The notes under the pieces are model-generated. The model was not told where the DNA came from. It ran no database searches and worked only from the letters and a program-made list of their open reading frames with translations. The translations under genes were made by a program, and so were the position numbers. Shown here one piece after another: positions 19,968-21,038 of a DNA stretch of 64,000 nucleotides. Origin of the DNA: a virus; IMG/VR virus record IMGVR_UViG_3300045988_094037. One strand, written 5' to 3'. Positions within the stretch are counted from its first letter, which is position 1. Every line of letters starts with the position of its first letter.

Positions 19968-20750
19968 ATGTCATACATCTACAAGATTTCTAATGATATT
20001 AACGATTAGATTTATATTGGTTAGACTCGTGGAACTTTAGAATCTCGATTAAAAGAACATTTATATGATGCTAAAGTAAATAAAGATAATAGTAAATTCC
20101 ATAAAGCTATTCGTGAACTTGGGAGTGAACATTTTTCTATTTCTATGATTGAAGAATGTCCTACTGAGTATCTTAATGAAAGAGAACGCTTTTAGATTGC
20201 TTATTATAATTCTCAAGAATACGGGTATAATTCAACTCGCGGTGGGCAGAATGATCCATATTATACAGATATAGATAAAGCAGTTGAGTATTATCTTCAT
20301 CATAAAGATGAAAAAACTTTAACCGAAATTACTAAAGATTTAAGAATCCAACCTAATCGGTTAAGAGATTTGCTTGAAGAGTTAGGACTAAGAAATAAAC
20401 AAACATATACTTCATATAGCGAGATCTCTCAACAAGAGAAAGATTCTATTTGTAGAGAATATTCTCAAGGTACTACAATTACAGATTTAACTAAAAAATA
20501 TCATCATGACTTTGATACGATTAAAAATATATTGAAGGAAAGAAATCTATATGCCTCAAGGTCTAAATCAGTATTACAATATACGATTGATGGTACTTTA
20601 GTTAAAGAATGGCCCACTTTAGCGGCCGCGGTGAAAGAATATAACAATAGACATATTGGAGAATGCGCTAGAGGAAAACGCAAAACTGCGGCAGGATATA
20701 AGTGGAAGTATACACATGGGGCTGATAATCTGGATTCGATTGGGGACTAA
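19968..20750 (+). CDS. GIY-YIG homing endonuclease (260 aa) with three in-frame TAG codons, standing free within the tRNA array
   Basis: N-terminus YIYKISNDIND(Q)IYIG(Q)TRGTLESRLKEHL, where TAG sits at the canonical YIGQT Gln; AAAGGAGA RBS; the last ~11 codons coincide with the tmRNA 5' end. Confidence 0.7.
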
Positions 20751-21038
20751 AAGGCTAAAACACACGGGTAGGCAATCACCTTACGAAGCGACTTAAAAAT
20801 TAACTGACGAAGATTATTTCGAAAATTATCTTGCTGCTTGATAGCAGTTTTTAACCCATGCTTTTTCTTTGTTCAAGCTATAATTAAACAAAGTGGTGGA
20901 GGCCAGAAACTGGTACATTTGTGGAGCGAGGATGCTTATGCCATATCCGCTTAATGATAAAATATAAGCTATCGTGTAAGTATGTTTTAGTTGACTAGGT
21001 TGCTCAAGACCGGGGTTCGACTCCCCGCAGCTCCACCA
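20718..21038 (+). ncRNA. ssrA: tmRNA (SsrA), ~321 nt, one-piece
   Basis: 5' GGGGCTGATAATCTGGATTCGATTGGGGAC matches the conserved tmRNA 5' tRNA-like domain. 3' end is CGGGG-TTCGACT-CCCCG-CAGCTCC-A-CCA. The acceptor GGGGCTG/CAGCTCC carries G3·U70. Internal tag frame ...D-E-D-Y-F-E-N-Y-L-A-A-stop (TGA at 20839-20841) sits in a CTGCT/AGCAG hairpin. Confidence 0.7.

What the first reader, a model, noticed from the sequence alone, without database searches (positions are those of the whole stretch)
20718..21038. Phage-encoded tmRNA (SsrA) whose 5' end is shared with the 3' end of a GIY-YIG homing-endonuclease ORF
The 5' sequence GGGGCTGATAATCTGGATTCGATTGGGGAC matches the conserved tmRNA 5' tRNA-like domain (GGGGCUGAUUCUGGAUUCGACGGG in E. 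coli), and the 3' end has a T-arm plus acceptor CAGCTCC-A-CCA identical to the E. coli SsrA 3' acceptor. The acceptor stem pairs with a G3·U70 (the alanine identity element). An internal reading frame encodes ...DEDYFENYLAA-stop, a typical tag-peptide ending, with the stop embedded in a hairpin. The tag frame uses TGA, not TAG, as its stop, which makes sense in a TAG-recoded system. The last ~11 codons and stop of the GIY-YIG ORF (19968-20750) lie within the tmRNA 5' domain, suggesting the HEG has inserted adjacent to or into ssrA. tmRNAs in phages are rare.
Basis: seen in the sequence. Interest (0 to 1): 0.75.

Follow-up and report, generated by a model that had tools for sequence, protein, structure and literature searches.

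The report
Phage tmRNA gene abutted by homing endonuclease
A common human-gut phage that reads the TAG stop codon as glutamine carries its own ribosome-rescue RNA (tmRNA), and in this strain a selfish homing-endonuclease gene sits directly against it, using a stop codon that lies inside the RNA gene.

Summary
Rfam places a full-length tmRNA at 20718-21038 (+), 76.8 bits against a threshold of 47, E=4.6e-28. A 260-codon GIY-YIG ORF (19968-20750) ends at a TAA 33 nt inside it.

Nine related tmRNA sequences share one fold: 97.9% of cells pair and 25 pairs show compensatory changes. G3·U70 is invariant. The tag is always 11 codons, ends in [L/I]AA and stops at TGA.

The window belongs to a very common ~147-kb human-gut phage that reads TAG as Gln. 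Every relative examined has a tmRNA in this slot after tRNA-Phe, and most have no endonuclease. The slot holds three alternative cassettes in backgrounds 97-99% identical:
- tmRNA alone
- tmRNA followed by a LAGLIDADG endonuclease
- GIY-YIG endonuclease followed by tmRNA, as here

The GIY-YIG cassette starts within 0-7 nt of tmRNA nucleotide 1. The same 33-nt overlap is kept in orthologues only 70-79% identical, and the endonuclease is under purifying selection (dN/dS ≈ 0.1).

Phage tmRNAs and endonucleases in phage tRNA clusters (T4 SegB) are both known, so this is a new variant rather than a new kind. An ArfA-like ORF lies 3.2 kb upstream. Expression, cleavage specificity and any regulatory meaning of the overlap are untested.

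The parts
20718..21038 (+). tmRNA gene, 321 nt, of the endonuclease-linked class 'G'
   Evidence: Rfam RF00023, 76.8 bits, E=4.6e-28, full model. The fold is shared with 8 related sequences: 97.9% of cells pair and 25 pairs show compensatory changes.
20718..20724 (+). Acceptor-stem 5' strand GGGGCTG. It pairs with 21028-21034 (CAGCTCC) and includes G3·U70. 21035 is the discriminator A and 21036-21038 the encoded CCA.
   Evidence: The stem covaries as CTG/CAG, CCG/CGG and ATG/CAT across alleles, while G·U is kept in 9 of 9 (helix 1).
21011..21027 (+). T-arm CGGGG-TTCGACT-CCCCG
   Evidence: 5-bp helix with 3 covarying pairs (helix 14).
20806..20841 (+). Tag reading frame. Resume codon GAC, peptide (A)DEDYFENYLAA, stop TGA at 20839-20841, followed by an in-frame TAG at 20842-20844.
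   Evidence: Read from the sequence. ARAGORN reads DNDYFENYLAA* at the same place in L011 and L014. Five tag variants all have 11 codons, end in [L/I]AA and stop at TGA.
20833..20848 (+). Hairpin H5 (GCUGCU-UGAU-AGCAGU) holding the tag stop codon
   Evidence: MFE -7.5 kcal/mol, z=-2.0. It is shorter than H5 of the other alleles (helix 8).
19968..20750 (+). Free-standing GIY-YIG homing-endonuclease ORF, 260 codons. TAG codons at 14, 19 and 76 are read as Gln. The conserved protein ends around ...GYKWKYTH.
   Evidence: Pfam PF01541. 218 homologues were found. In the alignment, homologues of about 50% identity end just after GYKWIKK. dN/dS is 0.10-0.13 against the tmRNA-linked orthologues.
20718..20750 (+). 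The 33-nt overlap: GGG GCT GAT AAT CTG GAT TCG ATT GGG GAC TAA. It encodes the tail GADNLDSIGD* of the endonuclease and is also tmRNA nucleotides 1-33.
   Evidence: Sequence. The same 33-nt overlap occurs in L018, L020, L023 and L024 and in L042.
19940..19967 (+). Endonuclease leader with Shine-Dalgarno AAAGGAG (19953-19959). This is the left end of the cassette.
   Evidence: It aligns with the cassette starts of L018, L023 and L024.
19933..19939 (+). GGAGCCA, a possible 7-nt remnant of the 5' end (GGGGCCG) of an endonuclease-free tmRNA allele
   Evidence: The window spacer aligns with L014 up to AAAGCAAGA|GGGGCCG. This is weak: 5 of 7 bases match.
19838..19939 (+). Structured spacer after tRNA-Phe. 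It has a small hairpin at 19838-19849 and a 10-bp stem joining 19877-19886 to 19927-19936. In relatives this spacer directly precedes the tmRNA.
   Evidence: Fold z=-4.1. The L012 spacer has the same architecture with compensatory changes, z=-3.9.
19763..19837 (+). tRNA-Phe(GAA), the left neighbour of the slot in all relatives
   Evidence: ARAGORN.
21044..21119 (+). tRNA-Lys(CUU), 5 nt after the tmRNA. It is present in the window lineage and in L001 but absent in L011-L014 and L018.
19838..21038 (+). 1201-nt block (spacer, endonuclease gene and tmRNA) missing as one unit in natural variant L001. CCACCA lies at both edges.
17462..17490 (+). Nearest upstream strong sigma-70-type promoter (TTGAAA, 17 nt, TATAAT). 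The next one is at 22390.
   Evidence: It matches 11 of 12 positions and belongs to a repeat family with about ten copies.
17317..17475 (+). 52-aa ArfA-like ORF, a candidate alternative ribosome-rescue factor (context)
   Evidence: Pfam PF03889, E=1.4e-5, 24.9 bits against a cut-off of 25.5. The only PDB matches are ArfA chains. It is conserved in 14 relatives.
31263..31338 (+). Suppressor tRNA(CUA), Gln-like (context for the TAG=Gln code)

Best explanation
WHAT IT IS. The window comes from a ~147-kb human-gut phage that reads TAG as glutamine. Window 20718-21038 is a functional one-piece tmRNA gene inside this phage's tRNA array.

HOW THE tmRNA WORKS (inferred from established tmRNA biology). 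The RNA is cut out of a long tRNA-array transcript by RNase P at its 5' end. Host AlaRS charges it with alanine through G3·U70. Host SmpB and EF-Tu deliver it to ribosomes stalled on messages without a stop codon. Translation then resumes on GAC and adds (A)DEDYFENYLAA. It ends at UGA, a stop codon that the phage's own amber suppressor does not read.

WHAT THE ENDONUCLEASE IS (shown by comparison). In this strain a free-standing GIY-YIG homing-endonuclease gene occupies the position immediately 5' of the tmRNA. It has no stop codon of its own and ends at a TAA formed by tmRNA nucleotides 31-33. The endonuclease and its tmRNA allele form one cassette. This cassette alternates, at exactly the same slot, with 'tmRNA only' and 'tmRNA plus LAGLIDADG endonuclease' cassettes in otherwise near-identical genomes.

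HOW THE ENDONUCLEASE WORKS (inferred). It most likely spreads as T4 SegB does. It would cut the endonuclease-free locus of a co-infecting relative near the tmRNA 5' end. Repair would then copy the endonuclease gene together with its linked tmRNA allele.

CONSEQUENCE OF THE OVERLAP (inferred). On any one transcript, the endonuclease message and the mature tmRNA are mutually exclusive products.
For: tmRNA identity:
- Rfam 76.8 bits, E=4.6e-28.
- The consensus fold of 9 sequences has 78 pairs with 97.9% of cells paired, against 38-48% when the partners are slid. 25 pairs show compensatory changes, against 1-5 when slid. 0 of 500 shuffles reach the observed values.
- G3·U70 is kept in 9 of 9 sequences.
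- Five different tags keep 11 codons, the GAC resume codon, the [L/I]AA end and the TGA stop.
- The tRNA-like ends stay 92-96% identical between endonuclease-linked alleles, although the adjacent endonuclease gene has dS≈0.9-1.0.

Phage origin and conservation:
- All 4 closest IMG/VR relatives and all 10 long human-gut contigs of 65-148 kb have a tmRNA after tRNA-Phe.
- The published relative Phass-1 has an unannotated tmRNA of the same lineage elsewhere in its genome.

Endonuclease:
- GIY-YIG domain.
- dN/dS 0.10-0.13.
- TAG sits at invariant Gln positions.
- The tail GADN[L/M]DSIGD occurs only in the tmRNA-linked orthologues. Homologues of about 50% identity stop soon after GYKW.

Insertion site and cassette behaviour:
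- L023 is 97.8% identical to L013 up to the base before tmRNA G1. Similarity returns (98.2%) just after the tmRNA CCA.
- The window matches L011 at 98.4% on the left and 95.4% on the right, but their tmRNAs are only 70% identical.
- The tmRNA + LAGLIDADG cassettes of L012 and L013 are almost identical, while the flanks of L012 and L013 match the window at about 99% and 84% respectively.
- Every endonuclease-linked (class G) tmRNA 5' end that was found has the GIY-YIG gene in front of it.

Co-transcription:
- The only strong promoters nearby are at 17462 and 22390.

Precedent:
- T4 SegB is a GIY-YIG endonuclease inside a tRNA cluster that carries neighbouring tRNA genes along with it (PMC2330249).
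Against: - There are no expression data for either product.
- No SmpB was found in the window, in the relatives' flanks or in the whole Phass-1 genome. Function must therefore rely on the host protein. The search was tblastn with one E. coli sequence written from memory, so it is weak evidence.
- ARAGORN does not call this allele.
- The endonuclease-linked alleles score about 40 bits lower in Rfam than the endonuclease-free ones: 66-80 against 113-120 bits.
- This allele has a 3-nt insertion in the D-loop-like region and a shortened H5.
- The pseudoknot pairings PK2-PK4 were not resolved.
- Codon 76 of the window's endonuclease is TAG (Gln) where the family has a near-invariant Trp, so this copy may be impaired.
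- Variant L001 lacks both the endonuclease gene and the tmRNA. The pair is therefore dispensable in at least one natural genome.
- The cleavage site is unknown, and the direction of each gain or loss is inferred, not observed.
Confidence: 0.8

Rival explanations
1. The overlap is a regulatory coupling, not just compaction. RNase P cleavage at tmRNA G1 removes the only stop codon of the endonuclease message. The endonuclease would then be made from a non-stop mRNA and be tagged and degraded by trans-translation, as E. coli ArfA is.
For: - The ORF has no stop before tmRNA nucleotide 31 in any orthologue, across dS≥0.9. This includes L024, which has a 2-codon deletion at the junction.
- No promoter lies between 17462 and 22390, so the two genes are probably co-transcribed.
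- There is a precedent: arfA mRNA is made non-stop and is controlled by tmRNA (PMC8012679).
- The phage also carries an ArfA-like ORF.
Against: - The overlap traces back to a single ancestral event, so its persistence may be neutral.
- No transcript data exist.
- Other endonuclease genes of this family in tRNA arrays have their own stops well before the next tRNA (L025).
Confidence: 0.18
2. The tmRNA of the endonuclease-linked allele is a decaying passenger, no longer a working rescue RNA, carried along only because it adjoins the endonuclease gene.
For: - Lower Rfam score than the endonuclease-free alleles (76.8 against 113-120 bits).
- ARAGORN fails on it.
- It has a D-loop insertion and a short H5.
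- The natural deletion variant L001 lacks it.
Against: - The tRNA-like ends are 92-96% conserved while the neighbouring endonuclease gene has dS of about 1.
- The acceptor stem, T-arm and H2 stay paired, with compensatory changes.
- The tag frame is intact in all three endonuclease-linked variants.
Confidence: 0.1
3. The GIY-YIG protein is a domesticated nuclease with a job in the tRNA/tmRNA locus, such as defence or counter-defence, rather than an actively homing element. The allele diversity would then reflect an arms race.
For: - Strong purifying selection, dN/dS about 0.1.
- The cassette divergence between the window and L018 (about 80%) is similar to the divergence of their backgrounds, which suggests long residence.
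- SegB was recently linked to amplification of anti-defence tRNA loci (PMC13096335, abstract as listed).
Against: - The gene is present or absent at one exact site in backgrounds 98% identical, in two lineages.
- Three different endonuclease cassettes abut the tmRNA ends. This is the usual signature of mobile homing endonucleases.
Confidence: 0.1
4. The tmRNA is a host ssrA gene or an attachment-site fragment next to an integrated prophage, not a phage gene.
For: The last 35 nt match a Ruegeria phage segment that is probably an attachment site. tmRNA 3' ends are common integration sites (general knowledge).
Against: - The gene is full length and lies between phage tRNA genes and phage ORFs on both sides.
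- It occupies the same slot in 14 phage contigs of 65-148 kb.
- Phass-1, a complete phage genome, has a homologue.
Confidence: 0.01

Closest known systems
T4 SegB, a GIY-YIG homing endonuclease inside the T4 tRNA gene cluster (PMC2330249)
   Same: Both are free-standing GIY-YIG endonuclease genes lying between structured RNA genes in a phage tRNA array. Both are absent from close relatives. In T4 the flanking RNA genes are inherited together with the endonuclease gene.
   Different: - The neighbour here is a tmRNA.
- The ORF ends inside the RNA gene.
- The linked RNA allele differs by 30-35% from the endonuclease-free alleles.
- The gene is written in the TAG=Gln code.
- Sequence relatedness to SegB was not tested. 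The best GenBank phage matches are I-TevI-like proteins at no more than 36% identity.
Known phage tmRNAs: Bxz1-like mycobacteriophages, Bacillus phage G and huge phages (PMC4131195, PMC12484599, PMC7162821)
   Same: A one-piece tmRNA encoded by a large phage rich in tRNA genes. In most of these no phage SmpB is reported.
   Different: - The host phage here is about 147 kb, uses the TAG=Gln code and is very common in the human gut.
- The tag family differs.
- Three allele classes are tied to homing endonucleases.
- The tmRNA is not annotated in the published relative Phass-1 (PMC10607447).
Group I intron in the T-loop of the Clostridium botulinum tmRNA gene (Williams 2002, recalled from memory and not checked here), and integrases that target ssrA 3' ends
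   Same: The tmRNA gene serves as a landing site for mobile DNA.
   Different: Here the mobile elements are free-standing endonuclease genes placed exactly at the gene's 5' or 3' boundary. The RNA is not interrupted.
E. coli ArfA and the control of arfA by a non-stop mRNA (PMC8012679)
   Same: A protein whose message loses its stop codon through RNA processing would come under tmRNA control. The phage also has an ORF with the ArfA KKGKGS[F/Y]xRKxKH motif.
   Different: For the endonuclease this is only a logical consequence of the gene layout and is untested. The ArfA-like ORF scores just below the Pfam threshold.
I-TevI-type GIY-YIG endonucleases
   Same: An N-terminal GIY-YIG catalytic domain and a C-terminal DNA-binding part. 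More distant homologues carry NUMOD1.
   Different: This one is not intron-encoded. No recognised DNA-binding domain is detected in this protein itself.

Membership tests
tmRNA (Rfam RF00023, one-piece) | Covariance-model score above the curated threshold over the full model | tested here: met
   76.8 bits against 47, model positions 1-374, E=4.6e-28.
tmRNA (Rfam RF00023, one-piece) | tRNA-Ala-like domain: 7-bp acceptor stem with G3·U70, discriminator A, CCA, and a T-arm with a canonical loop | tested here: met
   GGGGCTG pairs with CAGCTCC, followed by A-CCA. G·U is kept in 9 of 9 sequences. Two acceptor pairs and three T-arm pairs covary.
tmRNA (Rfam RF00023, one-piece) | Internal tag reading frame ending in a hydrophobic ...LAA-type C-terminus, with the stop in helix 5 | tested here: met
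   The tag DEDYFENYLAA is followed by TGA in a hairpin. Five variants keep the length, the frame and the [L/I]AA end. ARAGORN reads the orthologous tag in L011 and L014.
tmRNA (Rfam RF00023, one-piece) | Long helix 2 joining the tRNA-like domain to the body | tested here: met
   Helices 2-4 have 24 pairs, 8 of them with compensatory changes, and 95-96% of cells pair.
tmRNA (Rfam RF00023, one-piece) | Pseudoknots PK1-PK4 | tested here: inconclusive
   A PK1-like arrangement fits all alleles and two of its pairs covary (helices 5-7). The PK2-PK4 region has conserved covarying hairpins (helices 9-13), but the knot-forming pairings were not resolved.
tmRNA (Rfam RF00023, one-piece) | Partner protein SmpB available | tested here: not met
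   tblastn with E. coli SmpB (sequence from memory) found nothing in the window, the relatives' flanks or the whole Phass-1 genome. A host SmpB is assumed. The rest of this phage's genome was not searched.
tmRNA (Rfam RF00023, one-piece) | Alanylation and trans-translation activity | not testable with these tools
   This needs biochemistry or metaproteomics.
Free-standing GIY-YIG homing endonuclease | GIY-YIG catalytic domain with its conserved residues | tested here: met
   PF01541, 35.3 bits against 22.6. Y5, Y16-G18, R27, H31, E73 and N88 are invariant in the alignment. In the window, codon 76 is TAG (Gln) instead of the near-invariant Trp.
Free-standing GIY-YIG homing endonuclease | Presence or absence at one precise site among otherwise near-identical genomes | tested here: met
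   L023 against L013: 97.8% on the left, 98.2% on the right, with the break at tmRNA G1. Window against L011: 98.4% and 95.4%.
Free-standing GIY-YIG homing endonuclease | Linked flanking markers travel with the gene (co-conversion) | tested here: met
   The class G tRNA-like domain is found only next to this endonuclease gene: window, L018, L020, L023, L024 and L042.
Free-standing GIY-YIG homing endonuclease | Site-specific cleavage of the endonuclease-free allele and over-inheritance in crosses | not testable with these tools
   This needs purified protein and co-infection experiments.
ArfA (PF03889), for the ORF at 17317-17475 | Profile match above threshold, including the KGKGS-x-RK motif | tested here: inconclusive
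   24.9 bits against a cut-off of 25.5, E=1.4e-5, over profile positions 23-44 only. All six PDB matches are ArfA chains, but with E=0.13-0.43.

The most novel reading that the evidence does not exclude
The phage carries a ribosome-rescue module (tmRNA plus an ArfA-like factor) as an adaptation to reading TAG as glutamine. Amber suppression drives ribosomes past TAG-terminated host and early messages to the 3' end, which would raise the demand for rescue. In addition, the endonuclease gene has wired itself into this module. RNase P maturation of the tmRNA would remove the endonuclease message's only stop codon, so the endonuclease would be made from a non-stop mRNA and be tagged by the very tmRNA it is linked to. 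This would be a self-limiting control of a selfish nuclease.
Probability: 0.15. Interest if true: 0.85.

Novelty: new variant of a known kind. Interest (0 to 1): 0.6.

Why it matters
1. The phage is very common. One of its ORFs is indexed in 1628 blocks of public assemblies, and several of the contig records shown are labelled human gut metagenome. It nevertheless encodes its own ribosome-rescue RNA. That RNA is missing from the annotation and text of the only published relative (PMC10607447).

2. Rescue factors in a phage that suppresses amber codons give a testable link between stop-codon recoding and ribosome rescue. Suppressor tRNAs are known to raise SsrA tagging (Ueda et al. 2002, cited in PMC8012679). 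Cells lacking UAG termination rely on rescue (PMC6207430).

3. The locus is a natural experiment. Three tmRNA alleles are tied to no endonuclease, a GIY-YIG endonuclease or a LAGLIDADG endonuclease, all in near-identical genomes. It shows homing endonucleases driving the replacement of a structured-RNA gene whose 5' and 3' halves must stay compatible.

4. There is a practical point. ARAGORN misses both endonuclease-linked allele classes, so phage surveys that rely on it undercount tmRNAs.

Tried and rejected
- ARAGORN on the window gave no tmRNA call. This is a limit of the tool, because Rfam and covariation are clear.
- blastn of the tmRNA against GenBank phages gave only a 35-nt 3'-end match to a Ruegeria phage.
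- Exact 5'-end patterns in IMG/VR gave no hits. In the JGI/ENA metagenome set there was one hit, L042, also with the endonuclease gene upstream.
- The SmpB search by tblastn found nothing.
- A search for a dedicated promoter in front of the endonuclease gene or the tmRNA found only chance-level matches.
- The spacer motif TATAGTCTAG...TTTCTGCAA is unique in the window, so it is not a repeated signal.
- I tested whether other endonuclease genes of this family also run into the next RNA gene. They do not in L025.
- I tested whether the middle of the tmRNA is clearly mosaic between allele classes. The signal is modest: the L018 middle is 84-85% identical to the endonuclease-free class against 78.5% to the window. 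I do not lean on it.
- I considered L001 as an 'empty site' for insertion. Deletion is more parsimonious, because L001 shares the window's TCTAT + tRNA-Lys(CUU) junction. However, the order Arg-Phe-Lys(CUU) is also found in Phass-1, so the direction stays open.
- Host identification was not pursued. The only hint is the prediction of Clostridia for Phass-1 (PMC10607447).
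Full report
1. THE OBSERVATION

The score is 76.8 bits against a gathering score of 47, with E=4.6e-28 over model positions 1-374 (repeated).

The sequence shows the following:
- The 5' strand GGGGCTG pairs with CAGCTCC at the 3' end and includes G3·U70.
- A discriminator A and an encoded CCA follow.
- The T-arm is CGGGG-TTCGACT-CCCCG.
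- The reading frame at 20806-20841 is GAC GAA GAT TAT TTC GAA AAT TAT CTT GCT GCT TGA, giving DEDYFENYLAA and a stop, followed by an in-frame TAG.
- The stop lies in the loop of a 6-bp hairpin.

ARAGORN finds 31 tRNAs in the window, all on the + strand between 12871 and 32397. They include a tRNA(CUA). It does not call the tmRNA.

The ORF at 19968-20750 carries a GIY-YIG domain. It ends at a TAA formed by tmRNA nucleotides 31-33, so 33 nt are shared.

2. IS IT A REAL tmRNA?

A neighbouring 151-aa ORF led to four IMG/VR relatives (L011-L014). Each has a tmRNA in the same slot after tRNA-Phe(GAA). Lookups of endonuclease orthologues added L018, L020, L023 and L024.

Nine sequences were aligned (A3), and RNAalifold returns the canonical tmRNA layout. 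On the 78 pairs of that structure:
- 97.9% of cells form standard pairs, against 38-48% when the partners are slid by 1-3 columns.
- 25 pairs show compensatory changes, against 1-5 when slid.
- None of 500 shuffles reaches the observed values.

The acceptor stem covaries as CTG/CAG, CCG/CGG and ATG/CAT, while G3·U70 is invariant. The tag exists in five versions: DEDYFENYLAA, DNDYFENYLAA, DNDYFSSNIAA, DNDYFSNNLAA and DNSYFSNCLAA. All have 11 codons, resume on GAC, end in [L/I]AA and stop at TGA.

The pseudoknot pairings beyond a plausible PK1 were not resolved.

3. WHAT GENOME IS THIS?

The window encodes GyrA/GyrB, PhoH, a NAPRTase and a vault-protein-like ORF. A subset of its genes contains in-frame TAG codons.

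In the endonuclease family, TAG alternates with CAA/CAG at the invariant Gln19 and Gln204. The tRNA(CUA) has the acceptor stem and G73 of the phage's tRNA-Gln(UUG). TAG is therefore read as Gln.

A 77-aa ORF of the array is indexed in 1628 blocks of public assemblies. The ten contigs shown are 65-148 kb, seven of them 145-148 kb, and two of the records are named human gut metagenome. All ten carry the tmRNA.

The nearest GenBank phage is Phass-1, of the 'code 15 clade' from human gut (PMC10607447). Its annotation and paper do not mention a tmRNA. Rfam nevertheless finds one of the same lineage at record positions 92139-92577: 77.9 bits, tag ending ...RQAA, stop TAA.

Phage tmRNAs as such are known from Bxz1-like mycobacteriophages, Bacillus phage G and huge phages (PMC4131195, PMC12484599, PMC7162821).

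4. THE ENDONUCLEASE AND THE OVERLAP

The protein has 218 homologues. The three closest are P0001 (identical to the window's protein), P0002 (79% identity) and P0003 (70% identity). All three end ...GYKWKY(TH/TY/-)GADN[L/M]DSIGD.

Homologues of about 50% identity stop a few residues after GYKW. The last ten residues are therefore simply the translation of the tmRNA 5' end. In every contig that encodes P0002 or P0003 and extends past the ORF, Rfam places the tmRNA start exactly 33 nt before the ORF stop. The same holds in L042.

The endonuclease is under purifying selection in both halves, with dN/dS 0.10-0.13 at dS about 0.9-1.0. Over the same divergence the linked tRNA-like ends of the tmRNA remain 92-96% identical. 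This argues that both genes are kept functional.

One caveat applies. Codon 76 of the window's copy is TAG (Gln) where the family has a near-invariant Trp.

5. THE SLOT IS A CASSETTE SITE

Relatives without the GIY-YIG gene have tRNA-Phe, a structured spacer of 72-102 nt, and then the tmRNA.

L023 (with the GIY-YIG gene) is 97.8% identical to L013 up to the base before tmRNA G1 (...GGGTCGCTATAT|). At that point the endonuclease leader (TAATACC...AAAGGAG...ATG) begins. Similarity returns (98.2%) right after the tmRNA CCA.

In the window the spacer aligns with L014 up to a possible 7-nt remnant of a tmRNA 5' end, GGAGCCA at 19933-19939. The window matches L011 at 98.4% up to 19867 and at 95.4% from 21143. 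Their tmRNAs are only 70% identical.

By their ends the tmRNAs fall into three classes:
- Class G is linked to the GIY-YIG gene.
- Class N has no endonuclease gene. An unassigned 87-aa ORF follows it.
- Class L is followed by a 132-aa LAGLIDADG endonuclease (Pfam E=3e-6 and 8e-6).

Identity is 82-100% within a class and 61-79% between classes.

The tmRNA + LAGLIDADG cassettes of L012 and L013 are almost identical, although the flanks of L012 and L013 match the window at about 99% and 84% respectively. That is the classical sign of recent homing. L033 and L034 carry tmRNA, LAGLIDADG and the 87-aa ORF together. L020 has a second GIY-YIG gene after the tmRNA.

Two natural deletion variants exist:
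- L001 lacks window 19838-21038 (spacer, endonuclease gene and tmRNA) between two CCACCA repeats.
- L005 lacks 17867-20678.

6. HOW IT MOST LIKELY WORKS

Shown:
- The gene layout and the conserved fold.
- The conserved tag frame.
- Selection on both genes.
- The exact insertion point.
- The alternation of cassettes in near-identical backgrounds.

Inferred from established tmRNA biology:
- 5' maturation by RNase P.
- Alanylation through G3·U70.
- Delivery by host SmpB, since none was found in the phage sequences searched.
- Tagging for proteolysis.
- Termination at UGA, which the amber suppressor does not read.

Inferred by analogy with T4 SegB (PMC2330249):
- The endonuclease cuts endonuclease-free slots of co-infecting relatives.
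- It is copied in together with its own tmRNA allele.

The only strong promoters nearby are at 17462 and 22390. They belong to a repeated TTGAAA-17-TATAAT family. The endonuclease gene and the tmRNA are therefore probably parts of one tRNA-array transcript.

If so, RNase P cleavage at G1 would leave the endonuclease message without a stop codon. Each transcript would then yield either a translatable endonuclease message or a mature tmRNA, but not both. Whether the phage exploits this, as E. coli does for ArfA (PMC8012679), is speculation.

7. CONTEXT THAT STRENGTHENS THE RESCUE THEME

A 52-aa ORF at 17317-17475 matches the ArfA profile just below threshold (24.9 against 25.5 bits, E=1.4e-5). 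It carries the motif KKGKGSFNRKLKH, and its only PDB matches are ArfA chains. It is 86-100% conserved in 14 relatives.

Amber suppression is known to increase SsrA tagging (Ueda et al. 2002, cited in PMC8012679). Cells without UAG termination depend on ribosome rescue (PMC6207430). Two rescue genes in a TAG=Gln phage make a coherent hypothesis, but it is untested.

8. VERDICT

The tmRNA is a new member of a known kind. The boundary-nested endonuclease, the shared 33 nt and the three-way cassette polymorphism make the locus a new variant of the SegB-type arrangement. It is not a new category.

Noticed in passing
window 17317-17475 (+): A 52-aa ORF with the ArfA motif (FKQR...KKGKGSFNRKLKH). Pfam ArfA gives E=1.4e-5, just under the threshold. 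The only PDB matches are ArfA chains. It is conserved in 14 related contigs but was not found in Phass-1. It may be a phage-encoded alternative ribosome-rescue factor.
   Followed up: partly
L040 42139-42577 (-), which is OQ749652.1 92139-92577: The published phage Phass-1 has an unannotated 439-nt tmRNA (Rfam 77.9 bits) of the same lineage. Its tag is DNSNVIVMVHPALISAMMEVRQAA with a TAA stop. It lies outside the tRNA array and has no endonuclease gene beside it. ARAGORN misses it.
   Followed up: partly
L012 and L013 9575-9973; L032 3921-4319; L033 and L034 3929-4327: A 132-aa single-motif LAGLIDADG endonuclease gene with three in-frame TAG codons sits about 87 nt after the tmRNA CCA. Its tmRNA allele has an unusual T-loop, UGCGACU, with G where the conserved U55 normally is.
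   Followed up: partly
window 16375-16432 (+); L028 10207-10263: A twister-P1 ribozyme candidate (51.7 bits, E=1.2e-8, full model, below the gathering score of 67.2) lies 5 nt upstream of tRNA-Ser(GCU). A similar sub-threshold hit occurs in the Phass-1 tRNA array.
   Followed up: no
window 23406-23522 (+); also L011 12271-12387 and L012-L014: A 117-nt tRNA-like gene found by Rfam but not by ARAGORN. It has a tRNA-Ala-like 5' half, an insertion of about 45 nt in the anticodon region, and a 3' end GCCGA instead of CCA.
   Followed up: no
window 12504, 12747, 13108, 13364, 14656, 17462, 22390, 30080, 30797, 31680 (+): A repeated near-consensus sigma-70-type promoter (TTGAAA, 17 nt, TATAAT, often with an extended -10) punctuates the tRNA array. 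This implies transcription by the host RNA polymerase.
   Followed up: partly
L001 2315-2350; L005 360-375: Two natural deletion variants of the array. L001 joins the CCA of tRNA-Phe directly to TCTAT + tRNA-Lys(CUU). L005 fuses window 17866 to 20679, which removes six tRNAs and most of the endonuclease gene but keeps the tmRNA.
   Followed up: yes
L013 12035-12630; L014 10054-10649: A ROOL RNA (RF03087, 350 bits) lies in the tRNA array of two relatives. It is absent from the window.
   Followed up: no
window 32641-34161 and 34573-37014 (+); L015 4801-4920; L016 10488-10600: Adjacent ORFs carry DUF2828/DUF7788 domains and major-vault-protein repeat and shoulder domains. More distant relatives give sub-threshold hits to the Y-RNA-like family YrlA.
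   Followed up: no
window 19838-19939; L012 9056-9157: The spacer after tRNA-Phe folds into a small tetraloop hairpin plus a 10-bp stem enclosing a conserved loop of about 40 nt (z about -4). The stems show compensatory changes between alleles. Its function is unknown; it may be a leader or processing element of the tmRNA.
   Followed up: partly
L020 1309-1992; L025 5456-6091: Further GIY-YIG endonuclease genes of a second type lie in the same arrays. One comes directly after a tmRNA whose encoded CCA is disrupted (…CTCCAGACACCA).
   Followed up: no
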